Virus record (IMG/VR): IMGVR_UViG_3300006169_000028
Location: 1 to 36,321 of that record
Length of the DNA stretch: 36,321 nt
DNA from: a virus
Lineage: Duplodnaviria; Caudoviricetes
Strand: one strand, 5' to 3'
The notes under the pieces are model-generated. The model did not search any database, had not been told where the DNA came from, and was given only the letters and a program-made list of their open reading frames with translations. Below, in pieces: positions 1 to 36,321 of this stretch; within the stretch, counting starts at the first letter, position 1, and each line of letters starts with the position of its first letter. The position numbers were made by a program, and so were the translations under genes.

Positions 1-87
1 GGCGACGTGATCGGAAACCGCATTTTGACCGTGCCGCAAAAGTCCGGTAACGGCCGTCATAGAAGAAAATCCCCAGTCTATACCGCC
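1..87. repeat. Terminal direct repeat, copy 1 (circular assembly overlap)
   Basis: Bases 1-87 are identical to 36235-36321 and the large terminase frame runs uninterrupted through the join. Confidence 0.97.
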
Positions 88-1074
88 GATAACCTCCATT
101 CCGACCTCGTACGCGTACGGGTTATCGTATCGATCGTCAAAAATAGCCGCGTCGATCTTTTCCGGATCAAGAACGAGTCCGATCGTCGACGGCCGCGATC
201 CCATATATTCGACGAGGAAGTAATCAAGCGTCGGTTTATTTCGCCAAGCGTTGATAATGTTTTCGATTCGTACCCAACCTTCCGGATCACCGTTTCGGCC
301 GGCCGTGAGTTCTTTTAACTTTTGAAGATCGCCGATCTGCTCGTTAAGCTCCGGATCGTCAAAGATCGATCGGTCGAAAGTCTGAACAACGTCGATAATA
401 TCCCATTTAAAACGAAACCAGCCTCGTTCGGTCGCGTTATCCCATATATCTTGATACAACCCGAAAGCCTTGTGAAAAGTCGACGTCATAACCCGAAGCG
501 GCGACGGCGACGTGTCGACCATAGGAAGGGCCGAAAGCAAAAGACCGTCGTCGGTTTCGCACGCCTCGTCTGCGAATAGTCCGTCCGGGTGAGGGCCGCG
601 AGCTTGTTTCGGCGAGGCGGTGATCGCTTTAAAGTATTTTCCCTTGTCGGATTTCGTCTCCGACATTTTAGGCTCCGAGGCCAGCGCGTCCGTAATCGCC
701 GGATCCGAGTAACAAGAATCGCGGAAATAGTTATATACGATCTGCGCTTGCGCTTCCGATCCGGCCATATCGACGATCGATTTACCTTGAAATAGCCATT
801 TCGAGAATCCGACTTTACCGAGGATCATTGATTTACCACCTCCACGCGGCCCGGCGACAATGATATTCGGGTGCGTCTCGTACCAAATAAGCGCGTAAAG
901 TTGTCGGATCTTCGACGGGAAAAGAACGTCCGGTTCGTATACGTTATGAAAAAAGATCGGCTTCTCGCCGTAGGTACTACGAAGCGCTGTAAGATTGCTC
1001 GCGGAAAGGTTCTTGAAGCGATCCACGGCGTCGAAGTAACTCCGCTCGTTGAAGTGCGTTTGCGATTGTGTCAT
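1..1074 (-). CDS. terL: Terminase large subunit, 5' part (continues at 36234 down to 35764; about 514 aa in total)
   Basis: Missing from the ORF track. Manual translation from ATG 1074 is open to base 1: Walker A IIVAGPRGGGKS, Walker B GLFADEA, motif III-like VMTST, nuclease motif GGIDWGFS. In frame with ORF 35764..36294. Confidence 0.93.
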   Translation of the reverse strand, partial: MTQSQTHFNERSYFDAVDRFKNLSASNLTALRSTYGEKPIFFHNVYEPDVLFPSKIRQLYALIWYETHPNIIVAGPRGGGKSMILGKVGFSKWLFQGKSIVDMAGSEAQAQIVYNYFRDSCYSDPAITDALASEPKMSETKSDKGKYFKAITASPKQARGPHPDGLFADEACETDDGLLLSALPMVDTSPSPLRVMTSTFHKAFGLYQDIWDNATERGWFRFKWDIIDVVQTFDRSIFDDPELNEQIGDLQKLKELTAGRNGDPEGWVRIENIINAWRNKPTLDYFLVEYMGSRPSTIGLVLDPEKIDAAIFDDRYDNPYAYEVGMEVIGGIDWGFSSMTAVTGLLRHGQNAVSDHVA

Positions 1075-7282: not shown

Positions 7283-9226
7283 TTATTTGTTTATGTTAAA
7301 GAACCCTTGTAATCGTTTAAGTTCTCGATCGCGCGGATCCATATACAGACAATCGCCGCGCCCCCGTAGTTTTTCCGCCCCGGCCTGATCGAGAATGACC
7401 CGGGAATCCGTGGTCGAGGCGGTTGCGAACGCAATCCGGGCCGGAAGGTTCGCTTTGATTAAGCCAGTAACAACGTCAACGCTCGGGCGTTGTGTAGCGA
7501 TAATCGCGTGAATACCGACCGCCCGGGCTTTCTGAACAATCCGCACAATAAGCGACTCGAACGATCCGACTTCGAGATCCATTCCGTAGTCGGTAAGCAT
7601 AAGATCGGCGAACTCGTCGATCACAAGAACGATCCGGTGAAGCGGTTTATTCTCGATATTGTATTCGTCGATATTGCGCGCTCCCACTTTTTCGAGTTTG
7701 TTATACCGCGCTTCCATTTCTAGCGTTAGCCAGTGAACCGCCTTCGTTGCCGGAAGTGTCTCGTATATCGGTTTTTCCAGTAAGAAGGCGCTGTCGCGGT
7801 ACTGTGAAAGCTCGACGCGCTTCGGATCGATCATTACGAATCGGAGCGATTCGGGCGTATTTTGCGAGATAAGAGACTCGATTGCGGTTGATAAAAAGAC
7901 CGATTTACCTTGACCGGTCGCCCCGGCGACGAGTAAGTGCGGCATATCCGCGAGCGATCGAACGACGGTTTTACCGTATACGTCCCGACCGATCGGAATA
8001 TTAAGCGACTCGGAAACGTAAAAGTCCTTTCGATCCGCGAAGATCGGTTTCGATTCTTCCTTTGTCGGAACCTCGAATCCGACCGTAGATGTACCCGGGA
8101 TCGGCGCTAGAACGCGAATAGAGTCGCTTTCGAGGGCGTAGGCTATATCGTTAGCGTGCTTCTCGAAATCGCTCATTTTGCGGCCTCGTGAGGGCTTCGC
8201 GGTGTATAGCGTGATATTTGGCCCCCGGTGTGTATCGCGCATTTCAACGGCTAGTCCGAACTCTTGAAGTTTGAGACGGATCTTTTCTTCGGCGGTTATA
8301 TGCTCGTTTTGCATTTGATCGACCGGAGATTGAACGAAGCGCTTTTCGGCGAACTGAACGTCGCGCGTCTTCTTTTCGGAAAGAATCACGTCGTCGGTTC
8401 CGAGTAGGTTTTGCGAGTAGATTATGAAGGAATCTTTCGCGCTCATTCGATCCGATAGGTTCGGAAGGTAGATTCGATCACGTCGGGCCATTTCGTAGGT
8501 ACAGTGATTATATAGATTCGCAAAGAAGGTAAAGTACGACGGATTATCGCCGAATACGATCTCGATCGGTCGCCATTGCGGAGAGCCGTCCCGGTTCTCG
8601 CTTGTCTTGATCTCGTCGAAGACGATCGAATGCGGTTCTTCGTTTAAGTGATTCTTGACGGCGTGATAGTAGAACATTCCTTGCAAGATCTGATTCGGCT
8701 CGTCGAGATCGTCGTCGGAAAACGAGGAAACGAACTTCGTATCTCGAATGACAATCCGTCCGTCTTCGTCTCGAATAACAAGATCCGGATACGCTTTAAT
8801 CGGGATCGCCGCCTTTGCAATCGAGCCGTCCGGATTCGGAAGTTCGATTTCGGTTAAGATCTTTTCTTCGGAAAGCTCGACGTGATCGAATCGCGGAACT
8901 TCTTCGAAGTAGAAGTTTAGTCCGGCGGTTAAAGTCTTCAATGCTTTTTCAAGCGACCCCGTTTTACCGAAGTCGATCGCGCCTTGCATATTTGTTAAAT
9001 GCTGAACGCCGACTTCAATCGCCCCCGGAATATCGTCTTGCGAATATTCGTAGAAGTGCGCGAGTGCTTTGTGTCCGGCTTGCCCGACGGCCCCGGCGAC
9101 GCTGAACGTATCTTCGTAAACCCCCTCGACGTATCTTTTCTTCCACCGGATCGGATCGGAGAGGAACGTCCGCATAGACGAATAGCTCCAATGATCGATA
9201 GGATAGGTTATATCTTGTTTAGTCAT
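7283..9226 (-). CDS. PD-(D/E)XK nuclease fused to an FtsK/SpoIIIE DNA translocase motor
   Basis: N-terminus HWSYSSM...GQAGHKAL...PDLV...DTK; C-terminus PHLLVAGATGQGKS, MIDPKRVEL, VIDEFADL, ATQRPS, GAEKLRGRGD. ATG 9226 preferred over GTG 9232. Confidence 0.92.
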   Translation of the reverse strand: MTKQDITYPIDHWSYSSMRTFLSDPIRWKKRYVEGVYEDTFSVAGAVGQAGHKALAHFYEYSQDDIPGAIEVGVQHLTNMQGAIDFGKTGSLEKALKTLTAGLNFYFEEVPRFDHVELSEEKILTEIELPNPDGSIAKAAIPIKAYPDLVIRDEDGRIVIRDTKFVSSFSDDDLDEPNQILQGMFYYHAVKNHLNEEPHSIVFDEIKTSENRDGSPQWRPIEIVFGDNPSYFTFFANLYNHCTYEMARRDRIYLPNLSDRMSAKDSFIIYSQNLLGTDDVILSEKKTRDVQFAEKRFVQSPVDQMQNEHITAEEKIRLKLQEFGLAVEMRDTHRGPNITLYTAKPSRGRKMSDFEKHANDIAYALESDSIRVLAPIPGTSTVGFEVPTKEESKPIFADRKDFYVSESLNIPIGRDVYGKTVVRSLADMPHLLVAGATGQGKSVFLSTAIESLISQNTPESLRFVMIDPKRVELSQYRDSAFLLEKPIYETLPATKAVHWLTLEMEARYNKLEKVGARNIDEYNIENKPLHRIVLVIDEFADLMLTDYGMDLEVGSFESLIVRIVQKARAVGIHAIIATQRPSVDVVTGLIKANLPARIAFATASTTDSRVILDQAGAEKLRGRGDCLYMDPRDRELKRLQGFFNINK

Positions 9227-9242
9227 TTCCACGTAACGTAAT

Positions 9243-9265
9243 ATCTTTTAATATGTTTTATTATG
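9243..9265. promoter_or_regulatory. Phased direct-repeat operator, copy 2, overlapping a CATAAT -10-like hexamer
   Basis: ATCTTTT-aat-ATGTTTT-att-ATG; TATGTTTTATTATG (9252-9265) is identical to 12952-12965. Confidence 0.6.
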
Positions 9266-9298
9266 CACGATTGAAGGAGATTTGTCGCGTGCTTTTTG

Positions 9299-9307
9299 TG
9301 TGTATAA
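9299..9307 (-). promoter_or_regulatory. DnaA-box consensus match
   Basis: TTATACACA fits TTWTNCACA; intergenic, upstream of the putative promoter. Confidence 0.4.
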
Positions 9308-10468
9308 CTAAAGCGTTACACCGTGATCGTTGAATAACTTTTGAATCGCCGCAACGATTTCGTTTGAAGTCTGCTCCCCGATTCCCGGAAGATCACTATA
9401 AATCCCGATCGCCGCGCCTTCGTTGTGCTTCATAGCCTCGCCAACGGTTGCGAGTCCGTATTCTCGCATAACTTTACACGCGCCCGGTTTGATACCCGGA
9501 ACGAGATCGATACTCATTTTTTTGATCTTCTCGATCATTTCTTCCTCGGAAGGATCCCGGAGAGCGTCGGAGAGCGATCCGTGTCCGTCGGCTTCTTCTT
9601 CACCTTCAAAAAGTGAGTCCGACTCCGGTTCAACGTTTGTCGCTTCGTCGTGAATGATCGTATCCGGCGTTACACCTCGAAGCTCGTTTTTCTTTTTTCC
9701 TAGTACGGCTTGAGATTGATCGTTTGAAATCTCGCCGGATTTAACTTCATATTCGACCGTTTCAAGATCGCCGCCGACAACGAGGCCGGAAAGTGCTTCG
9801 GGAACGATAAAGGCGGCAATATCGCCGATTGCTTTATAGCGAAGCATTCGTTCGGGCCATTTCTTCCACGCGCTCCGTTCGGTTATAAGACCTTTTTCCC
9901 GAGCCTGATCGATCGTAAACTTGCCCGTCATAGACGCGCCATTATCGCGGCGAGTAATCTTCACTTCGGCGGCCTTCTTGTCGTTCTGAATCCATTCAAT
10001 ATCGGCGTAACGAAGTATTCGTTGAATAACGATCGATCCATAAAGCGAGAGTTTACCGTTTACGAAATAGAACGAGTTCAACGATTGAATCGGAGTCAAC
10101 CCCATTTCATACCCGGCTTGAAGGGCCATAACCACCTTCGGCGTGTTATCCATAGTTGCCGGAAGTGCGTTCGATTTAGAGAAAGTTTCGGCGGCGATAT
10201 TGATCGCTTGCCACAGCTTCGGATTTAAGAAGTTAAGCGACCGAGCTTCGGCGTTTTGAATGTATTGATCGCTAGGCGCGGCCAGTTCTTGACCGAGTGC
10301 GGTTTTAGTTTGAGTCGCTTTTGCGACGGCGCTTGTAACAGTTGATTCGATCGTCCGAATAACTTCCGGCGATACTGTTCCGGCCGGATCTTCGGTTTTA
10401 GTTTGATCGGCTCCGGTGTCCGGATTGTCGACCTTCTTGTCTTCGGTTGTGTTGATGTTTTCGCTCAT
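9308..10468 (-). CDS. RecT/Red-beta-like single-strand annealing protein with C-terminal helix-hairpin-helix domain
   Basis: ALQAGYEMGLTPIQSLNSFYFVNGK...AWKKWPERMLRYKA...PEALSG matches the RecT-family pattern; C-terminal VPGIKP and LPGIGEQTS HhH motifs. Confidence 0.82.
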   Translation of the reverse strand: MSENINTTEDKKVDNPDTGADQTKTEDPAGTVSPEVIRTIESTVTSAVAKATQTKTALGQELAAPSDQYIQNAEARSLNFLNPKLWQAINIAAETFSKSNALPATMDNTPKVVMALQAGYEMGLTPIQSLNSFYFVNGKLSLYGSIVIQRILRYADIEWIQNDKKAAEVKITRRDNGASMTGKFTIDQAREKGLITERSAWKKWPERMLRYKAIGDIAAFIVPEALSGLVVGGDLETVEYEVKSGEISNDQSQAVLGKKKNELRGVTPDTIIHDEATNVEPESDSLFEGEEEADGHGSLSDALRDPSEEEMIEKIKKMSIDLVPGIKPGACKVMREYGLATVGEAMKHNEGAAIGIYSDLPGIGEQTSNEIVAAIQKLFNDHGVTL

Positions 10469-10775: not shown

Positions 10776-11474
10776 CTATATGTTGACAAGTACGGCGACC
10801 TTCACTTCGTTGACGGTTTTCATTATGTTTTCTGTCCAGTTCGGACAAGGGCCACCGCCGGCGGCTTCATTTACGCAATAGCTACCGTTCATTTGTGCGA
10901 TCGACTTTCCTTTGAAGTGCGGCTTGTTTAAGAGATAGGAAATATCTTCGAGCGCGTCATATGGACTCGCGTAATATTTGAACTCGCCCCCTCGCGCTGT
11001 TGACCGGATCGCGCCGCAGTTGTTACGGCTAGACCCGACTCCTCGCGTACAGAACGTCGTCTCGTGGCCCGCGATAGCGAGCACGTCGGCCCAACGATCC
11101 AGTTCGAGGATCTGTTCGGCATACGGTACAAGCGCGTCGTTTTTCTTCGCTAGGTAGCCCGAGAGGGCTTTAACTTTTTTTGTTTTTACGTTGAAAGATA
11201 CGGTTTGATTAAGTTCTTCGAGGTTTTGAGTCGCTTCGTCGAGCTGTTCTTTATAGTAACGACGCTCGACTTCTTCCCACGCTTCGGCTTGAAACTCCGG
11301 CGAGTTATAGATCTCGTTCATTCGTTCTTTCTTCGCGGCTTCTTGAAGTTCGATTTCTTCTTCGGCCGTTAGTTCTTTTTCGTTGTTAAAGATCGAGGGT
11401 AGATTATTTCGGTTTGCGTAACTGATCGCGGCTAGTCCGATAATAATCAAAGCAAAAATAAAAATGCGTTTCAT
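10776..11474 (-). CDS. Exported or membrane-anchored lysozyme-fold (glucosaminidase-like) protein
   Basis: Signal/TM MKRIFIFALIIIGLAAISYA, coiled-coil stalk, then LAIAGHETTF...NNCGAI...FKYYAS...YC...W resembling GH73-like domains; 4 Cys. Confidence 0.65.
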   Translation of the reverse strand: MKRIFIFALIIIGLAAISYANRNNLPSIFNNEKELTAEEEIELQEAAKKERMNEIYNSPEFQAEAWEEVERRYYKEQLDEATQNLEELNQTVSFNVKTKKVKALSGYLAKKNDALVPYAEQILELDRWADVLAIAGHETTFCTRGVGSSRNNCGAIRSTARGGEFKYYASPYDALEDISYLLNKPHFKGKSIAQMNGSYCVNEAAGGGPCPNWTENIMKTVNEVKVAVLVNI

Positions 11475-13526: not shown

Positions 13527-14960
13527 TTATTTGTTTATTTTAATAACCTTGTAAAGACGTTCCCCGGCGTGATTCGTGATATAGAAGTCGACCGGTTCCG
13601 GAGTCGGTTCGGGCGTAGGTTCCGGAGTAGGCTCCGGCTCCGGTTCGATTTCCGGTTGCTTATATTCTACACCGTAGATCTCGCATACTCCCCGGGCAAT
13701 ACCTTCGGCCGCTTTCTGATAGCCACCGGGCGCCGTGAGCTTCGACATATCTTCGGGATTCGTAATAAAGCAGACTTCGACAAGCGACGCCCACATTGTC
13801 GTTTTACGGATCCACCCGAGCGAGCCGACGGCGGTTTGCGTATCCGGTTTAGCTCCGCGATCCGGAATCCCAAGCGCGGCGGCGATATGTTTTGATAGCG
13901 CGGCGGCGACTTGCTTTGAAGTTTCGCTTGTTCCGTAATACGCCTCCGCACCCCGGGCCGCCGGGTTAGAGTTTGCGTTTAAGTGAATATCGATCGCGAG
14001 TGCGTCGTTTAGATTCGGCGCGCGGCGGTTTGCTTCGGCGATCGACTGTGAAAGATCCAAGTTATCGGCGATTTCTATCACGTCGAAACCGTTTGCGGAA
14101 AGAAGCGGCGTAAGCTCGTCTCGAATCTTCCGAACTTCTTCGCCTTCGGTATGACCACCGCCGCCGGCCCCGGGATCTAGGTTGTGATGTCCGGCGTTTA
14201 CGATAATCGTCTTTTTAACGTTTGGAAGCACAATCCCGGTATTTGACGGAAGATCGGTTTCCCCTTCTTTCACTTCCGGAGTCGGAATATTCGTATTCGT
14301 TCCGGGCGCTTGTGCATAGTTGAAGTTAAGACGATCCGCTACCGGCCGCGCAAGCCGAAACAGTTCGTCGAGTCCGTCTTTGTGGAAGTAGTGTACGTCG
14401 TGAGTTTTATCCCAACCTCCAATCGATACGTTCGAGGGTTTTAAATGAATCGCGAGGTGATCCCAAAAAGTATGTCCGGGAAAAACTTCGTGCGCGAGAC
14501 GACCAAAAAACGAATCGACTTTTTTGTTTTTTGAGTACGCATAATCACCGTCAAAGTCTCCGGTAAATCCGGCCTCCATAACTCCGAGGAATGTATCGAT
14601 CGATTGACCGGCGAGATCCTGTTCAAAGCGGTTGTAATCCTTCCACCATTGATCGTGATCCCAATAAACGACGACGAGCTTCTTCCCGGCTAGATACGCC
14701 GGAACCGTGTATCGGAGCCGAAAGGCGGCTTTATTGAAATAGTGGTAAATAAGATCCTTTCCGCTTTTTTCGGACTTCTTGATCGTTTCCTTCGGATCGA
14801 ATGGCGGCGATAAAAGCGGATTCGCTTTTACATACTCCCAATCGATTTGAAAGTTTAGTTTTTCCTGTAAAAGCGCATTGTATTTTTTAAGCTGATCGAG
14901 AATAAACTCTTTTGAGTGCGACGAGTTATCGACGAATCGGCCGGGAATGACTCTAGCCAT
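13527..14960 (-). CDS. Endolysin: N-acetylmuramoyl-L-alanine amidase (Amidase_3) with an extra N-terminal domain
   Basis: IIVNAGHH...DPGA...E, IDIHLNA, GAEAY, LVEVCFITN motifs; N-terminal AHEVFPGH; PE/PT linker near the C-terminus. Confidence 0.9.
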   Translation of the reverse strand: MARVIPGRFVDNSSHSKEFILDQLKKYNALLQEKLNFQIDWEYVKANPLLSPPFDPKETIKKSEKSGKDLIYHYFNKAAFRLRYTVPAYLAGKKLVVVYWDHDQWWKDYNRFEQDLAGQSIDTFLGVMEAGFTGDFDGDYAYSKNKKVDSFFGRLAHEVFPGHTFWDHLAIHLKPSNVSIGGWDKTHDVHYFHKDGLDELFRLARPVADRLNFNYAQAPGTNTNIPTPEVKEGETDLPSNTGIVLPNVKKTIIVNAGHHNLDPGAGGGGHTEGEEVRKIRDELTPLLSANGFDVIEIADNLDLSQSIAEANRRAPNLNDALAIDIHLNANSNPAARGAEAYYGTSETSKQVAAALSKHIAAALGIPDRGAKPDTQTAVGSLGWIRKTTMWASLVEVCFITNPEDMSKLTAPGGYQKAAEGIARGVCEIYGVEYKQPEIEPEPEPTPEPTPEPTPEPVDFYITNHAGERLYKVIKINK

Positions 14961-23887: not shown

Positions 23888-24784
23888 CTAGAATCGCATA
23901 TCTTTAGTAAAGACTCGCGTGTCGTCGTCGGTTCGACCGTACTTCGGCGCTTCACTTGCACGAGCGACTTGTGTTAGTTCCACGCCGTCGAGATCGTAGA
24001 GTTCCACGTCCCCGGTTCGAATCTTTTTAAGCATTGATCGGGCCTCGCCAAGCATTTTTTCGCCGGCGTCCGAATCCGGGTATTGCTTATAAAGCATTTT
24101 CCCGGCCGCAAGAAGTTCGGTTATGTCGCGTACGTAGTCCGGAATATATGAAAGCGGAAGCGAGTATTTTTTCGCGAGAACGGTTCGAACCTCGGCTTCG
24201 GCGGCGGTTCTATGCTTCTCGATATACGAATCGGTTATATTCGAGTTTTCCGCAAAGCCGGCGGTAACTCGAATATCCCATAACGACACGTATCGGCTCG
24301 ATTCGTCGACTTGTGCGGCTTCGGCTTCCGAAAGGAGCGTCGTTTGACCGGTTACGCTGTTGTAGTAAATCGCTTTGAAATAACTATAATCGTTCCCCGT
24401 ATATTCGAGAACGGATCCGCGAGGATCGTCGACCTGAATATCCTTCGGAGATCCGTCGTCGGTAAGTTCGGTATACGTTCCGTCGAGCGCGTCCGATCCG
24501 TAAAACTTTCGTTTATTGAAACGGAAAAGCTGAACCGGGGTTCCGGCCGGGTGATCGTATTTGAGCGTCGCAACGGTTACGCCTTGATTCCCGGAAATAG
24601 AATCGATTTCGCAAAGTTCGGTCGTTTCCTGTCCTTCATAGCCGACCCGGATAAATAAATCCGCCGAAAATCCGTCGTTATTTTCAAGCGTAAGCGCAAC
24701 GCCTGATCCGGCCGACGCGTCGGAGTCGAGGCGTGATTGTTCGCCGCGAATGTAGTCTTCTGTTGGTGCGATTAAGAGTTTCAT
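23888..24784 (-). CDS. Head-tail adaptor (Mu gp36-like C-terminal domain) with a long N-terminal extension
   Basis: C-terminal YVSLWDIR...AEAEVRTVLAKKYSLPL...ARSMLKKIRTG; about 160-aa beta-rich N-terminal addition. Confidence 0.72.
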   Translation of the reverse strand: MKLLIAPTEDYIRGEQSRLDSDASAGSGVALTLENNDGFSADLFIRVGYEGQETTELCEIDSISGNQGVTVATLKYDHPAGTPVQLFRFNKRKFYGSDALDGTYTELTDDGSPKDIQVDDPRGSVLEYTGNDYSYFKAIYYNSVTGQTTLLSEAEAAQVDESSRYVSLWDIRVTAGFAENSNITDSYIEKHRTAAEAEVRTVLAKKYSLPLSYIPDYVRDITELLAAGKMLYKQYPDSDAGEKMLGEARSMLKKIRTGDVELYDLDGVELTQVARASEAPKYGRTDDDTRVFTKDMRF

Positions 24785-27700
24785 AATATCCCGGGTTCGG
24801 CGTCGTCGTTAGTTTTTAATGTAGCACTATCACTACTAGATTTTAACACGGTTCCGTCGTTATTCTTCGATCGCAATACACCGGAATCGGACTTTGATCG
24901 TGTAAAAATCTTTCCGGCGGCCGTTTTTAAGAAGGCCGCTCCCTTGCGGAAACCAGTTAATAGATTCTTCGAAACGCTATCCGAGAGCGTTATTGACTCC
25001 CGAATCAAGCGCGTGAATATGTTATCTGTCGACACCGTATCGGAGAGCGACACGGCTTCGAGAATCCTTCGAGTAAAGGTTTTAACGGGCGCCACAACGT
25101 CGTTTAACGTGAGCGAATCAAGTACCCGAAGATAGCGCATAAATGACGTATTGTCGTCGAGTGAAAGGGAATCAATCACGGATCGGACGCGCGTAATGGC
25201 CTTCGAAGCGGTATCGGAAAGGGAAAGGGAATCGACGATATGCTTTGTTCGAGCAAGAAATACGTCGTCCGAGAGCGTAAGTGTATCTATGATCCGGCGG
25301 TAATAGCCGCGTAGTACAGAATCCGAAAGCGTGATCGAATCGACGATCGATCGGACGTACCCCCGGGCGACCGCGAACGTATCGGAAAGAACGATTGAGT
25401 CGGTTACGGATCGAATGAGTGATTGTATTTTCGTAACCGAGTCTTCCAGCGTTAAGCTATCTCGGACTATTTTCCCGAATCCTTTACGTACGGAATCCAC
25501 AAGAACGATCGAATCCGTAACGACGGTTTGATATAGCCGAGAAGCGACGGCCGTGTCTTGAAGCGTGATTGAGTCAATAATCGACCGGAAGTATGAAGTG
25601 GCCTTTGAAACCGTGTCTTGAAGCGCCACAGTGTCCAAAATCGAGCGAATAAACGTCTTTATGGTAGAAACCGCGTCCGAGAGCACAATCGCGTCTAAAA
25701 CGGCCCGTACGTACGTTTTAACGCTAGTTACGGAGTCTTCGAGCGTAATCGAGTCGAGAATAGTGCGGTAACGTTGCCGACTTGTCGACACGTTATCCAC
25801 AAGAGCGAAAGAATCGAGAACGGATCGAACCCGGGTTTTTACAGTTGTAACTAGATCCGAGAGCGTAAGCGTGTCGGCGATTGACTTTACAAACGTCTTT
25901 ATGGTCGCCACGGAATCCGTGAGTGTGAGCGTGTCCGATATTGACCGGACTCGTGAAAGGAGCTTTGTCGCGCTGTCTTGAAGCGCAAGACTGTCGAGAG
26001 CCGACCGGATTCGAGTCGTGGCGCGAGTAACCGTATCGGCAAGAGTAAGCGAGTCGAGAATCGATCGAATGTACGATTGATCGGCGTCTACTACGTCGGC
26101 CAAAGTAAGCGAGTCCGCGACTTCTTCCGTATACGCGGTTCCGCCCGAGCCGCCGACTTCCGGAAGTTTTACAAGCGTGAGGCTCGCCGGTGAATAGTCG
26201 TCGACTAGTCCGGAAGTAAGTCCGAGCCTTGTATTGACCTTCAATACAACCGGAGCGGAATCGATCTCTAGTACGCCCATAATAATATCGGATCCTTCGT
26301 TTGTGTTATTCGTATTTCGAATATAACAACATACCGAACGTAAACCGGTTTCGAGAACGTCGTCAATGTGTATCTGTATCTCCGGCCCCGTTCGTTGCGC
26401 TGTCGGGCCAGTGAAGGGCGCGTTAAAAGATAGCAAGTACGAACCGGCCTCGTCTATTGTTACTTGATTCGGATTCGTGCCGGTAGAGTGAGTATATGAA
26501 TCCGTATCGATCTCGTCGTCGGTTGACCACAAAACATCATAGTCTCCGGTTGTCTGATTCCAGTTATCCGACGGCCCTTCGACTTGCGTTCCTCGCGCCG
26601 AATATACGTTATACGTGGACGGGATTTTAATAATAATAATCGTCGCGGAAAGAGATCCGACCGTAACCGTTCCAGTATTGCCTTCTTCAATAGTAACCAC
26701 GTCGAGCACTTGAGCCGATCCGCCTGTCGTTAAATATCGGGCAAGGTGAAGGGAAGACCGGGAAATATTTTCCGCCGCTCGGATATATCCTTGCGACGCA
26801 AACGCGCCGGATTGTAGTGTGCCGTCAAGCCGAAGACCGGTTCGAACGTTTGTTCGCGCGGTCGCACTTGAAAGCGGTATATTTACAAATATGAGATACG
26901 AGGTATTCGCTTCGAGTGTGATTTGTTCCGGGTTCGTAACGGTTGAGTGAGTAAACCCGGCGTCTTTGCGGACTTCTGTCGCCCACTTGATCGGATACGC
27001 CGTCGTTTGATTAAGATTCGTTGAGTTTGTCGTTTCCGTTCCTTTTCCAATAAATACCGTTTCGTCTTCGATATACCACGCCGAAAGTCGGTTCCCCGTT
27101 GCGGTTATGGTGTTAGCAATACCGCCGCCGTCGTGCGTTATTTTAATCTCGATATAGTCGTCAACCGCAAGCCCGGTAAGTGCAAAAGAAAGGTGAAGCG
27201 AGGATTGATTCGCGCCGTTATTTCGAATATAACAACAAGCGGATTCGCCGACGTCCTGTTCAACGCCGTTTTTAAATACTCGAATATAAAGCCAGTTTCG
27301 CGACGTGCTCGCCACGCCGTCGGACTGAAATGTGCCGTTAAACTCGAATAGGTAATCTCCGGCCGTTTTAATCACTAGACGCGACGGGTTCCCGGAAGCC
27401 CAATCGAAATACGTCGAGTTCATAACTTGAACGTCGTCAAAATCAAGAAGTGAACTAGAAGCTGAAACGAAGTTTGTCGATCCGCCACCGTAGGTATTTC
27501 CGATCAAAATCGCTCGCGCGGCTTCCGAAGCCGTCGGGACGCCGTACTGAATACCCTCGATATAGATTGAAGGATCCCAATCTTCAAGAACCGGCGTCGG
27601 ATCAAGACCGCTCGTGTCGTGAGCGGCGCCGTCTGTCGTACCCGTTGTCGCGTAGGCAATCGAGGCCGTGCCGGTTCCGTTATAAAAGCCACGGGCGCCG

Positions 27701-28647
27701 ATCCAGTATGTTCCGGCGGCGAGATTCGGAGTCGTCGCAAATGTAAACTCCTCGAATGTGTTCGTTGTATTTGCCGGGCCACGATCGGCCGTATGGTGAA
27801 GCGGCCCGGAAGCGTAATCCGGAGATCCGGAGCCGTTATCGGCGAATATTGCCACGTCAACAAGAACGTTCGCCCCGGAAGACTCGGATATTGCCGCCCA
27901 TACGCTCGTTATGTCGGTTTCATAGTCGAGAACGAACTTTCGAAGTAAATACTTATCTTCGCCACCACCGGCGAGAGAATAAGAGCTTGATTCGACGTCC
28001 TGATTTCCGATCGTTACATTAGTTCCCGGATCAACGGCCGAAGTTGGCGCGTCGTCGGTTCCCGTTCCTACGCCAAGAGCGAGAATCTTATACGTGTTCG
28101 TTGTGTTTCCTACACAACCGACCGTTATATTCGCGCCCGTTGTGATCGAAGAATCGGTAACTTCAAAGTTCCACGTACCCGGCTCGGATACGCCGTCCGC
28201 CCATACTTTCGCTTTGAGTGCGGTTCCTCGGATCTGAATCCGGACGTGAATAATATCGTTATCGGTGATTGTAAAAGCGTCCGGGCCGTCAAGCGTCGTC
28301 TCGGTTCCCGAAACCGCCTTTCGAAGATCGATAACGTTTGTATCGTTTCGCACAAGAAGAACGTACCCGGTACGAGTTGCTTCTGATCCAAAACCCGAAG
28401 CCCGAACGCCAAAAAACGGGATTCCTACCGATCCCACGTTTAACTTTACATAAAGTTCTTGATCGTCGTCGGCTAGATCATTTACTTGATCCCAATAAAA
28501 CGCGCAACGTACGAACGCGCCGGCTTCGGTTACTTGAAGACCGTCGGCGACGACTGAATAAGACGCGCCGGTATTCCACCCTTCCGTCCAATCTGACGGC
28601 GGCGATCCGACACTATATTCCGAAAAATCTGTGAATAGTTGAGCCAT
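24781..28647 (-). CDS. Large neck/head fibre protein: lectin-like domain, three C1q/TNF-like domains, 20 beta-strand repeats
   Basis: 1288 aa; internal repeats visible in the translation; lies between the capsid and adaptor genes. Confidence 0.75.
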   Translation of the reverse strand: MAQLFTDFSEYSVGSPPSDWTEGWNTGASYSVVADGLQVTEAGAFVRCAFYWDQVNDLADDDQELYVKLNVGSVGIPFFGVRASGFGSEATRTGYVLLVRNDTNVIDLRKAVSGTETTLDGPDAFTITDNDIIHVRIQIRGTALKAKVWADGVSEPGTWNFEVTDSSITTGANITVGCVGNTTNTYKILALGVGTGTDDAPTSAVDPGTNVTIGNQDVESSSYSLAGGGEDKYLLRKFVLDYETDITSVWAAISESSGANVLVDVAIFADNGSGSPDYASGPLHHTADRGPANTTNTFEEFTFATTPNLAAGTYWIGARGFYNGTGTASIAYATTGTTDGAAHDTSGLDPTPVLEDWDPSIYIEGIQYGVPTASEAARAILIGNTYGGGSTNFVSASSSLLDFDDVQVMNSTYFDWASGNPSRLVIKTAGDYLFEFNGTFQSDGVASTSRNWLYIRVFKNGVEQDVGESACCYIRNNGANQSSLHLSFALTGLAVDDYIEIKITHDGGGIANTITATGNRLSAWYIEDETVFIGKGTETTNSTNLNQTTAYPIKWATEVRKDAGFTHSTVTNPEQITLEANTSYLIFVNIPLSSATARTNVRTGLRLDGTLQSGAFASQGYIRAAENISRSSLHLARYLTTGGSAQVLDVVTIEEGNTGTVTVGSLSATIIIIKIPSTYNVYSARGTQVEGPSDNWNQTTGDYDVLWSTDDEIDTDSYTHSTGTNPNQVTIDEAGSYLLSFNAPFTGPTAQRTGPEIQIHIDDVLETGLRSVCCYIRNTNNTNEGSDIIMGVLEIDSAPVVLKVNTRLGLTSGLVDDYSPASLTLVKLPEVGGSGGTAYTEEVADSLTLADVVDADQSYIRSILDSLTLADTVTRATTRIRSALDSLALQDSATKLLSRVRSISDTLTLTDSVATIKTFVKSIADTLTLSDLVTTVKTRVRSVLDSFALVDNVSTSRQRYRTILDSITLEDSVTSVKTYVRAVLDAIVLSDAVSTIKTFIRSILDTVALQDTVSKATSYFRSIIDSITLQDTAVASRLYQTVVTDSIVLVDSVRKGFGKIVRDSLTLEDSVTKIQSLIRSVTDSIVLSDTFAVARGYVRSIVDSITLSDSVLRGYYRRIIDTLTLSDDVFLARTKHIVDSLSLSDTASKAITRVRSVIDSLSLDDNTSFMRYLRVLDSLTLNDVVAPVKTFTRRILEAVSLSDTVSTDNIFTRLIRESITLSDSVSKNLLTGFRKGAAFLKTAAGKIFTRSKSDSGVLRSKNNDGTVLKSSSDSATLKTNDDAEPGIL
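24970..26121 (-). repeat. 20 tandem 18-20-aa protein repeats, consensus (I/V)xD(S/T)(I/L)xLxDxV
   Basis: Counted from VADSLTLAD to IRESITLSD. Confidence 0.9.
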
Positions 28648-34468: not shown

Positions 34469-35738
34469 CTTCTTCGGTTACGTCTTTAACTGATTTCGTT
34501 ACGACAATGTCTTCGTCGTCGTCGGTTCGCTCCGGAAGTCCTAGATTCTCGCGGAAGAACTGTTCGTCGGCCTCGATCACGCCAACCGCCCCGGTATCCG
34601 TTAGCGTCTTGTATGCGTCGGCGAGTCCCTTTACGTCGACCGTCGTAATGCCGGTATAGTCAAGCTGTGGATAAGCGGTTACGTTGTCGTAGTTCATATC
34701 GACAATCTGCTTTATGACGTACTTATTGAATGCGTCGACAAAGTTATTCGCAACCGCCTCGACCGATTGAAGGAATAGATCGGATTGATCGGCCGAAAGC
34801 GCATACGAGCCGGTTTCGTTAGCGCCAAGTTCTAGGAACTGCGCGAGGGCCGCTTTTAGAATCTCGCGGTTATGATTTGCGATCGCTTTTTCCGGAGACG
34901 CAATCGACCCGGATTTCATATCCATAAACTTGAAGTCCACCTTGCCGTTCCCGACTATGTACGCTTGTTCGTCCGCGTAAAGATTTTCAAGAACCTGTTC
35001 GGCCTTGCGCTTTGATTCGTCGTCCCATTCCGTACCTTCCCTCGGATCGGCCATAGGAATACCGAGGCCGTGGCGTTCGTATGCGAGCGCCTCGATCTTG
35101 TAGAAGTTATTTTTGAAAAACCAATGCTTATATGGCGCGCGAAGAATCGAAGTTCCCCACCAGTTATCTCCCTCCTTTTCATTTACGATAATCAAAAGTT
35201 TTTCGATCGGGATTGAAACCGTACGGGCGTCCGTACTATTTGCGAGTTGCTGAACGATTCCGTCTTCACCGTCGATCGTTTGCCACCGTTCGATCGTCGT
35301 CGGAAGGCGCGGCGCCAGTTTACGAAGAACGACCATATCCCGGCCGTTGACCGTTCGAATATCGAACACCTTCTCGAACACGGATACGCCAAAATCAAGA
35401 CAAAGAAGCGCCTGTCGTATCACGTCGTCCCACGTCATAGACATTTCTTCAAAAAGGTTTTGCGAGATACGATCGGCGATTTCAATATCGCGCTCCTCTT
35501 GCGAGGCCGGCTTTATGTACCAGTTAGCACGGCGGATCGGTAGTTTTAAAACGCGAAGAAGTGCGGAGATCGTACCGTCTGACTTCCGCATTTCGTCATA
35601 GATCGTCATTGCCCGAACGCCGTCTAGCTCGGGATTATAATCGTGCGAGATAATACCTTTCCAGTTACTCGTCCCGGTTTGACCGTACTCCGGCCCGCGT
35701 ACTTTTACGTTTGAGTCTTGAGAGTCGACGTTCGCCAT
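34452..35738 (-). CDS. Portal protein (Mu gp29 / DUF935-like)
   Basis: YDEMRKSDGTI, GVSVFEKV, WGTSILRAPY, ERHGLGIP, GSYALS; directly after terL. Confidence 0.9.
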   Translation of the reverse strand: MANVDSQDSNVKVRGPEYGQTGTSNWKGIISHDYNPELDGVRAMTIYDEMRKSDGTISALLRVLKLPIRRANWYIKPASQEERDIEIADRISQNLFEEMSMTWDDVIRQALLCLDFGVSVFEKVFDIRTVNGRDMVVLRKLAPRLPTTIERWQTIDGEDGIVQQLANSTDARTVSIPIEKLLIIVNEKEGDNWWGTSILRAPYKHWFFKNNFYKIEALAYERHGLGIPMADPREGTEWDDESKRKAEQVLENLYADEQAYIVGNGKVDFKFMDMKSGSIASPEKAIANHNREILKAALAQFLELGANETGSYALSADQSDLFLQSVEAVANNFVDAFNKYVIKQIVDMNYDNVTAYPQLDYTGITTVDVKGLADAYKTLTDTGAVGVIEADEQFFRENLGLPERTDDDEDIVVTKSVKDVTEEDVDDL

Positions 35739-35763
35739 TGCGTTTATTATACGTTATTTCTTA

Positions 35764-36321
35764 TTAAAACTTCTTCCTACGTAATCCACTATTCACGCGC
35801 TCGACCTTTTGTTCAACGTTAGCGTTCGGGATCGATAGATCCGGCTCGATAAGTTGGAAGCGTTGAAGCGCACACATAGTCGCGTCCGGAATGTGGTCGT
35901 CTTTCTTGATCGTCATATCCGAGCCTTCGCGATACCGGAGCCGCTTATGTTGCCATATGGCCGTTTTTTGCGACGCCGGGATTTTGAACCGCTCGTTTTC
36001 GAACCAAGCGCGATAGTTTCCGATCATTCGCGGCTTTTCCTTCGAAAAGACGACTTCGTGAACAACCGGGGATAACCTCGCTTCCCGGATCCGAGGATCA
36101 CTCGCGAACGTTTTCCGAAGAAGATCGTTTTCGAACTTTCCGGCGCTGTCACAATACCAGTGTTGAACACGTCGGGCGATTGTGTATTTAACAATCGCTT
36201 CGATAATAATATCAAGCGAAACTTGCGAATACGTGGCGACGTGATCGGAAACCGCATTTTGACCGTGCCGCAAAAGTCCGGTAACGGCCGTCATAGAAGA
36301 AAATCCCCAGTCTATACCGCC
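35764..36321 (-). CDS. terL: Terminase large subunit, 3' (nuclease) part
   Basis: GGIDWGFS, YCDSAG, KKDDHIPDA; continuation of 1..1074 across the join. Confidence 0.93.
   Translation of the reverse strand, partial: GGIDWGFSSMTAVTGLLRHGQNAVSDHVATYSQVSLDIIIEAIVKYTIARRVQHWYCDSAGKFENDLLRKTFASDPRIREARLSPVVHEVVFSKEKPRMIGNYRAWFENERFKIPASQKTAIWQHKRLRYREGSDMTIKKDDHIPDATMCALQRFQLIEPDLSIPNANVEQKVERVNSGLRRKKF
36235..36321. repeat. Terminal direct repeat, copy 2
   Basis: Identical to 1-87. Confidence 0.97.

What the first reader, a model, noticed from the sequence alone, without database searches (positions are those of the whole stretch)
7283..10468. PD-(D/E)XK nuclease fused to an FtsK motor beside a RecT-like annealase
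Seen in sequence: one ORF of about 647 aa joins a RecB/Cas4-superfamily-type nuclease domain (about aa 1-280) to FtsK alpha and ATPase domains with intact Walker A/B and QRP motifs. It lacks the membrane anchor and ends right after the motor, with no KOPS-reading gamma domain. Established: phage recombination modules pair an exonuclease with an annealase (RecE/RecT, Exo/Beta), and FtsK/HerA rings are hexameric dsDNA translocases, as in HerA-NurA resection. Inference: a single-chain motorised end-resection nuclease feeding RecT, or a host-DNA degradation or genome-segregation machine. It is the only ATPase I recognise besides terminase, and no helicase is encoded.
Basis: partly seen in the sequence, partly recalled or inferred. 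Interest (0 to 1): 0.82.

Follow-up and report, generated by a model that had tools for sequence, protein, structure and literature searches.

The report
Motor-driven nuclease partner of phage RecT
This uncultured phage and many relatives encode one protein that joins a DNA-cutting domain to an FtsK-type DNA pump next to a DNA-annealing gene, and it likely works as an ATP-powered version of the exonuclease that prepares DNA ends for phage recombination.

Summary
Confirmed. ORF 7283-9226(-), 647 aa, joins a RecB/RecE-type nuclease (AdnA Z 17.1, RecE Z 14.5) to an FtsK alpha-beta motor with intact ATPase and DNA-gripping residues, no anchor and no gamma domain. It is a family: 66 of the best 150 clusters at 50% identity are full fusions. 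An annealase lies within 2 kb in 138 of 141 fusion loci, from four annealase subfamilies, against 0 of 24 unfused viral FtsK loci. Unfused sister nucleases sit beside RecT, Sak4 or Erf in phages lacking FtsK, so the motor is an add-on to an ordinary exonuclease-annealase pair. FtsK pumps DNA out through its alpha face (PMC7321959), where this nuclease is tethered, as NurA sits on HerA's exit. Best reading (0.6): motor-fed end resection for RecT; no activity was tested. Missing helicase is not specific to the fusion. Relatives are prophages of Saccharibacteria; this phage's host is not established. Not found in print in ten searches. The scan reported the same fusion four times before on other genomes.

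The parts
7283..9226 (-). Nuclease-FtsK fusion ORF, 647 aa (alternative GTG start at 9232)
8414..9205 (-). RecB/RecE-type PD-(D/E)XK nuclease domain, aa 8-271; H52, E120, D148, D162, K164, Q182 invariant in 29 of 29 aligned
   Evidence: (pLDDT 92.8)
8309..8413 (-). Linker aa 272-306; low confidence in the monomer model (275-299 pLDDT <50) but under purifying selection in relatives; absent from stand-alone nucleases
8051..8308 (-). FtsK alpha domain (DNA exit face of the ring in P. aeruginosa FtsK)
7298..8011 (-). FtsK beta (RecA-fold ATPase) domain; ends with the protein, no gamma domain
7901..7924 (-). Walker A, G435-S442
7613..7630 (-). Walker B, ending D537-E538
7523..7525 (-). Arginine finger R568 (P. 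aeruginosa FtsK R620)
7481..7492 (-). QRPS 579-582; R580 is DNA-binding loop II (P. aeruginosa R632)
9308..10468 (-). RecT/Red-beta-superfamily annealase, 386 aa (phrog_561/4171 subfamily), core about aa 60-230
9560..9574 (-). Short conserved LxxA[LI] motif (aa 299-303) in the annealase's acidic tail; candidate docking helix, partner unknown
   Evidence: 14 of 20 homologous tails, shuffle mean 1.4, maximum 6 of 2000 shuffles
9317..9556 (-). C-terminal helix-hairpin-helix / RNA polymerase alpha-CTD-like domain (aa 305-384), seen only in this annealase among 8 aligned
   Evidence: TM 0.72 between predicted models

Best explanation
The 647-aa protein is the exonuclease partner of the phage's RecT annealase with an FtsK motor fused behind it, and it likely resects double-stranded DNA ends in an ATP-driven way for single-strand-annealing recombination. 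Shown: architecture, nuclease fold, intact catalytic and motor residues, tight linkage to an annealase, purifying selection on both halves. Inferred steps: (1) six chains would form an FtsK alpha-beta ring on DNA, with no gamma domain and so no KOPS steering, and an end would be captured by the nuclease domains or by threading; (2) the ring would move inward beta face first, so DNA leaves at the alpha face, where the N-terminal nuclease is tethered by a linker of about 35 residues; (3) the nuclease would digest one strand, most likely the 5' strand as RecE does, while the motor adds speed and processivity and clears bound proteins; (4) the spared 3' single strand would be loaded by RecT, possibly recruited through its tail, and annealed for circularisation, concatemer formation or break repair during phage replication.
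For: Annealase within 2 kb on the same strand in 138 of 141 fusion loci (loci are partly redundant) and in 45 of 46 clusters at 90% identity; the 3 misses have only 92, 92 and 635 bp upstream; 121 of 140 gaps are 100 bp or less; control 0 of 24 unfused viral FtsK loci. Linkage survives four annealase subfamilies and an order swap in 3 clusters. Unfused sister nucleases lie beside Bet/RecT (L116, L118), Sak4 (L120, L126) or Erf (L172) genes, so the nuclease family's job is annealase partner. Fold: AdnA nuclease Z 17.1 (rmsd 3.7, 234 aligned), PDB 3l0a Z 16.9 (3.3, 218), RecE Z 14.5 (3.9, 201). Motor: Walker A lysine 101 of 101, Walker B glutamate, arginine finger and Q each 98 of 101 (3 gaps), loop II R 95 and K 96 of 101 fused motors. 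dN/dS mostly 0.00-0.26 in nuclease, linker and motor in 11 clusters of close relatives. Fused motors form their own old lineage, 2 label changes on a 131-row tree, apart from host FtsK. Direction beta to alpha stated in PMC7321959; HerA's N-terminal domain is the putative exit and drNurA-HerA resects the 5' strand during translocation (PMC9960219). Fusion plus RecT aa 228-386: weak support, score 0.43, best of 3 controls 0.00, runs agree in at least 29% of contacts, partner pLDDT at least 57; the mark was reached by 116 of 157 solved and 2 of 215 mismatched pairs, but at 0.60 or under by only 18 solved pairs and both mismatches.
Against: No activity, polarity or oligomer was measured. The motor is dispensable in sister phages: 79 of the best 150 clusters lack it (some are fragments) and 0 of 5 genomes with the unfused nuclease hold any FtsK, so the fusion is an upgrade, not a requirement. 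The monomer model fixes no nuclease-motor geometry (pTM 0.51, aa 275-299 unresolved), so the halves could act independently. Six nucleases per ring do not match RecE's tetramer (PMC3424549 citation). Four annealase subfamilies with unlike tails argue against one conserved interface; the tail motif was found in only 6 of 27 annealases of the other subfamilies. Loop I R661 is basic in 20 of 20 unfused controls but only 56 of 101 fused motors, so grip may differ from FtsK (this copy keeps R609). This copy has alanine at position 56 where most relatives have glutamate. One dN/dS value was 0.95 (linker of L085/L099, few synonymous changes) and two were saturated. The complex score is of the kind the tool calls more often wrong than right unless likely beforehand, and may reflect the solved lambda Exo-Beta complex (6m9k, listed).
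Confidence: 0.6

Rival explanations
1. Two jobs on one chain: the nuclease is an ordinary ATP-independent RecE-like partner, and the motor would act at another step of the same pathway (driving branch migration or strand exchange after annealing, stripping proteins, or moving concatemers), the fusion serving only to bring them to the same place.
For: Sister nucleases work beside annealases without a motor; linker unresolved in the monomer model; no DnaB in 30 fusion phages; loop I relaxed in many fused motors.
Against: Spacing between the nuclease's last motif and Walker A is held at 172-198 residues in the fusion loci where both motifs were found and the linker is under purifying selection, which suggests a set geometry; the nuclease is on the exit face.
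Confidence: 0.22
2. A host-chromosome degradation machine that would free nucleotides for phage replication, useful in small-genome hosts.
For: A fast non-specific translocase with a nuclease could shred DNA; this phage has no integrase and only 1 of 17 near-complete relatives has a tyrosine and 0 of 18 records (17 relatives and this one) a serine recombinase; HAD/PNKP phosphatase genes lie downstream in 4 prophages. That Patescibacteria lack nucleotide synthesis is recalled, not tested.
Against: Does not explain the annealase linkage; no sign of how phage DNA would be spared; temperate prophages carry it; RecB/RecE-type domains act at ends.
Confidence: 0.09
3. A phage genome segregation or dimer-resolution motor, like cellular FtsK with XerCD.
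For: About 40% identity to P. aeruginosa and E. coli FtsK motors; other phages carry FtsK genes (408 records match the motor).
Against: No gamma domain, which reads KOPS and activates Xer (PMC7321959), no membrane anchor; tyrosine recombinase in 1 of 17 relatives; 5 of 5 host genomes keep a separate 740-758 aa FtsK.
Confidence: 0.05
4. An artefact: misassembly or read-through joining two genes.
For: The window's protein is a singleton at 90% identity and no sequencing run was available to check it.
Against: Full-length fusions in 16 other clusters, 52 viral loci and 66 clusters at 50% identity.
Confidence: 0.01

Closest known systems
Phage two-component recombinases (RecE-RecT, lambda Exo-Beta, YqaJ- or DUF3799-RecT)
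   Same: PD-(D/E)XK exonuclease gene next to a RecT/Beta annealase (PMC8093625 passages); RecE-like fold.
   Different: Known partners are ATP-independent (lambda Exo, PMC3424549); here a full FtsK motor is fused to the nuclease.
HerA-NurA end-resection complex
   Same: FtsK/HerA-superfamily dsDNA pump with a nuclease on its N-terminal exit side; translocation-coupled 5' resection (PMC9960219 passages).
   Different: Two proteins; NurA is a different nuclease fold (recalled: RNase H-like); motor is HerA with a HAS barrel, here FtsK alpha-beta; works with RecA/RadA-type recombination, not an annealase. It works like it but is not a member.
Cellular FtsK/SpoIIIE
   Same: Alpha and beta domains, Walker motifs, arginine finger, loop II.
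   Different: No membrane anchor, no gamma domain, separate lineage from host FtsK.
RecB, AddAB, AdnAB, Dna2 and UvrD-Cas4-like helicase-nucleases
   Same: Same nuclease fold covalently tied to a motor (AdnA is the best structural match; UvrD fusions in PMC5704561).
   Different: Those motors are SF1 helicases moving on single strands, with the nuclease C-terminal in RecB/AddAB/AdnAB (recalled); here a hexameric dsDNA translocase follows an N-terminal nuclease.

Membership tests
Phage exonuclease-annealase (RecET-type) module | PD-(D/E)XK exonuclease with intact catalytic motifs | tested here: met
   D148, D162, K164, H52, Q182 invariant in 29 of 29; RecE Z 14.5, rmsd 3.9, 201 aligned
Phage exonuclease-annealase (RecET-type) module | Adjacent RecT/Beta-superfamily annealase, conserved linkage | tested here: met
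   phrog_561 E 1.8e-14; 138 of 141 loci; Pfam RecT below cut-off for this copy
Phage exonuclease-annealase (RecET-type) module | 5'-to-3' resection leaving a 3' tail | not testable with these tools
   needs biochemistry
Phage exonuclease-annealase (RecET-type) module | Nuclease binds the annealase | tested here: inconclusive
   weak support, 0.43 against best control 0.00
Phage exonuclease-annealase (RecET-type) module | Nuclease is a stand-alone ATP-independent toroid | tested here: not met
   fused to an intact ATPase; oligomeric state not tested
Cellular FtsK/SpoIIIE | Alpha-beta motor with Walker A/B, arginine finger, DNA loops | tested here: met
   loop I K657 position is T605, but it is not conserved in unfused controls either
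Cellular FtsK/SpoIIIE | N-terminal membrane domain | tested here: not met
   N-terminus is the nuclease; no hydrophobic segment
Cellular FtsK/SpoIIIE | C-terminal gamma domain | tested here: not met
   chain ends with the motor
HerA-NurA | HerA ATPase with HAS barrel and a separate NurA nuclease | tested here: not met
   motor matches FtsK (E 7.5e-33) far better than HerA (E 1e-6 to 1e-8) by Foldseek; nuclease is RecB/RecE-type
HerA-NurA | Nuclease on the DNA-exit side of the ring | tested here: inconclusive
   follows from domain order and PMC7321959; no hexamer model was made (too large for the tool)
Cas4 | Four cysteines binding an Fe-S cluster (recalled definition) | tested here: not met
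   one cysteine in the first 300 residues

The most novel reading that the evidence does not exclude
A new class of phage recombination machine: a single-chain, self-loading hexameric motor-nuclease in which a repurposed cell-division FtsK pump drives DNA into a crown of RecE-like nucleases at kilobase-per-second speed, clears protein roadblocks, and hands the single strand to an annealase docked by a short tail helix; a convergent, one-gene counterpart of HerA-NurA and RecBCD, and a candidate for long-range recombineering.
Probability: 0.3. Interest if true: 0.85.

Novelty: new variant of a known kind. Interest (0 to 1): 0.65.

Why it matters
Known phage annealase partners are passive exonucleases. 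A widespread lineage that powers this step with the fastest known dsDNA translocase would add a third design for motor-driven end resection beside RecBCD/AddAB/AdnAB and HerA-NurA, show FtsK reused outside segregation and conjugation, and give a two-gene system that is simple to purify and test, with natural motor-less sisters as controls. It is common in phages of Saccharibacteria and related small-genome bacteria, whose phage biology is little known and for which genetic tools are scarce.

Tried and rejected
Integrase-free integration: five prophages have the host junction just upstream of recT beside different host genes, which suggested that RecT and the fusion integrate the phage. Rejected: 4 of these 5 have a tyrosine integrase about 30 kb away at the far end (the fifth runs off its contig), and G005 has a 48-bp repeat in tRNA-Thr at both ends; no such long repeat was found in G002-G004. 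Motor as helicase substitute: not specific. Recent capture of host FtsK: host FtsKs group apart (FastTree, midpoint root, no one-clade test). One origin of the fusion: not shown; the nuclease tree (116 of 150 rows; 34 dropped for short coverage or insertions) needs 10 changes between fused and unfused, and some unfused rows may be fragments; a slower tree did not finish. Core chromosomal gene: only 2 of 401 genomes of G001's phylum had a strong match. Cultured phages: none holds the whole fusion (0 of 408 and 0 of 331 matching records cover 80% of the query; nuclease alone no match). Single-protein locus search found nothing; alignment A2 was too diverse for the locus search; alignment A4 found no locus. 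No sequencing run was listed, so no read mapping or expression data. Promoter scan: 5 sites against 9.1 expected, uninformative. Host of this phage: homolog searches gave no organism names. L119, L121 and L128 did not give a whole nuclease under codes 11, 25 or 15; my note 5 wrongly lists L119 as code 25. Iyer et al. 2004 on the FtsK-HerA superfamily was not held.
Full report
Observation. The window is a complete 36,321-bp tailed-phage genome with direct terminal repeats, nearly all genes on the minus strand. ORF 7283-9226 (647 aa) carries PDDEXK_1, FtsK_alpha and FtsK_SpoIIIE matches above Pfam cut-offs. It has no membrane segment and stops where the motor stops. ORF 9308-10468 (386 aa), ending 81 bases before the fusion's ATG, is a RecT-like annealase by PHROGs (E 1.8e-14) and just under the Pfam cut-off. 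Downstream lie a lambda-O-like initiator and a RusA-like resolvase, so the pair sits in the replication-recombination block.

The nuclease half. A model from a 29-sequence alignment is confident (pLDDT 92.8, pTM 0.89) and matches the AdnA nuclease (Z 17.1, rmsd 3.7, 234 aligned), PDB 3l0a (Z 16.9, 3.3, 218), RecE (Z 14.5, 3.9, 201), then ACE1, Dna2, MGME1 and AddB (Foldseek agrees). H52, E120, D148, D162, K164 and Q182 are invariant in 29 of 29. There are no Fe-S cysteines, so it is RecB/RecE-type and not Cas4. This copy has A56 where 15 of 16 homologs in alignment A1 have glutamate; the effect is unknown.

The motor half. It is about 40% identical to P. aeruginosa FtsK. Using the residue roles in PMC7321959 (parts 1 and 2 of 5 read), the arginine finger (R568), loop II (R580, S582, V583, G588, K591), loop I R609 and alpha-ring K350 are kept; the K657 position is T605, but that site is not conserved in unfused controls either. 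Across 101 fused motors (dereplicated at 90%) the ATPase residues are near invariant, while loop I R661 is basic in 56 of 101 against 20 of 20 unfused controls. The same paper states that DNA moves from the beta to the alpha ring and exits there, which places an N-terminal nuclease at the exit.

The family. Sixteen other clusters share the full architecture at 31-43% identity over the nuclease half. Of 80 viral loci returned, 52 hold the whole fusion (3 more are cut by a contig end), on contigs of up to 45 kb. A profile of the nuclease alone found 186 clusters at 50% identity with E up to 1e-30; of the best 150, 66 are full fusions, 5 have part of a motor and 79 have none, some being fragments. 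No GenBank phage record holds the whole fusion; database names are only 'DNA translocase FtsK' or 'RecB family exonuclease'. In genomes, 19 loci were found: 8 titled Saccharibacteria or Saccharimonas, 5 unclassified bacteria, 3 Atopobiaceae and 3 others. Five on contigs of 87-370 kb are prophages flanked by host genes, and these hosts keep a separate 740-758 aa FtsK. L127 carries the fusion in code 25, the code of Absconditabacteria phages in PMC13059738 (passage). The host of the window's phage is not established; a Patescibacteria host is an inference from relatives.

Synteny and selection. All 32 representative loci scanned had a RecT/Beta-family gene upstream. Over all loci fetched, 138 of 141 fusion loci and 45 of 46 clusters at 90% have an annealase within 2 kb on the same strand; the three misses are at contig edges; 0 of 24 unfused viral FtsK loci do (detection was by BLAST with annealases from fusion loci, which could miss distant types in the controls). 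The annealase comes from four subfamilies (20, 11, 13 and 1 clusters) and lies downstream in 3 clusters. Nuclease, linker and motor are all under purifying selection in 11 clusters of close relatives, with one high and two saturated values.

The motor is an add-on. Unfused sister nucleases lie next to Bet/RecT, Sak4 or Erf genes in 5 loci (of the other unfused loci, one starts at a contig edge, one is cut by an edge, and four are in another or unresolved code). Five genomes with the unfused form hold no FtsK (the same query rang in 5 of 5 genomes). Fused motors form an old lineage of their own (2 changes on 131 rows); the nuclease tree needs 10 changes between fused and unfused, so gains or losses recurred, or some unfused rows are fragments. 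DnaB is absent from 30 of 30 fusion phages and from 5 of 6 unfused ones, so the motor cannot be shown to replace a helicase.

Link to RecT. The annealase's acidic tail holds a short LxxA[LI] motif, present in 14 of 20 homologous tails against 1.4 in shuffles (the homologs are related, so this shows conservation, not independent origins) but in only 6 of 27 annealases of other subfamilies. A complex prediction of the fusion with RecT aa 228-386 gave weak support: 0.43 against a best control of 0.00, at least 29% contact agreement, partner pLDDT at least 57; 116 of 157 solved and 2 of 215 mismatched pairs reach the mark, but only 18 solved pairs and both mismatches do so at 0.60 or under. I count it as a slight push only.

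Mechanism. Shown: architecture, fold, intact active sites, linkage, selection. Inferred: hexamer formation, loading at ends, motor-fed digestion of one strand, 5' polarity, hand-over to RecT. I put this at 0.6; independent jobs of the two halves within recombination at 0.22; host DNA degradation at 0.09; segregation at 0.05.

Comparison and novelty. It belongs with phage exonuclease-annealase modules by nuclease fold and linkage, and differs by the motor. It would work like HerA-NurA (PMC9960219, passages) but fails that family's defining features. Ten literature searches listed no paper on this fusion; most hits were seen as listings only. Term look-ups in main texts found no FtsK in PMC5704561, PMC3424549, PMC8093625, PMC13490951, PMC13059738 or PMC12647753; PMC8190038 (passages) and PMC3853050 (whole text) describe phage FtsK parts without this fusion; PMC7824862 mentions FtsK only as a packaging ATPase. 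No supplements were read and Iyer et al. 2004 was not held, so an earlier mention in a domain table cannot be excluded. Four earlier notes of this scan describe the same fusion on other genomes; they are not independent evidence. Verdict: real, widespread, a new variant of a known kind, interest 0.65.

Noticed in passing
window 9317-9556 (-): The annealase ends in a helix-hairpin-helix / RNA polymerase alpha-CTD-like domain (TM 0.72 to NusA-type HhH models) not seen in 7 aligned relatives.
   Followed up: partly
window 9560-9574 (-): Conserved LxxA[LI] (often SLxxALxxP) motif in the disordered tail of this annealase subfamily, 14 of 20 homologs.
   Followed up: partly
L088, L089, L091, L092, L094, about 0.4-1.2 kb upstream of recT: recT and the fusion are the first genes at one prophage end, with a different host gene beside each (secA, EF-G, Mur ligase, DAGK, ribosomal L1); the integrase is at the far end; an att repeat was found only in G005.
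   Followed up: yes
window 35738-36321 and 1-1074 (-): The 514-aa large-terminase-like ORF runs across the contig junction; terminal repeat 87 bp; only weak Pfam support on the part scanned.
   Followed up: partly
window 10776-11474 (-) and 13527-14960 (-): A glucosaminidase-like protein with a hydrophobic N-terminus in the early region (E 3e-4, under cut-off) and a 477-aa Amidase_3 endolysin.
   Followed up: no
L043:15459-16949: A Cpn60/GroEL-like chaperonin gene in a 39-kb phage carrying the fusion (E 2.7e-33).
   Followed up: no
L125 and L127: Both read best in code 25 (TGA as glycine); L127 has the fusion, L125 the unfused nuclease and a DnaB.
   Followed up: partly
L016:9133-9732: A sliding-clamp (DNA polymerase III beta)-like gene lies between recT and the fusion.
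   Followed up: no
fused motors, loop I: The loop I arginine (P. aeruginosa R661) is lost in many fused motors while loop II is kept, which may mean grip on mainly one strand.
   Followed up: partly
window 24781-28647 (-): A 1288-aa protein between head and tail genes matching only an unknown-function family (phrog_12240, four stretches).
   Followed up: no
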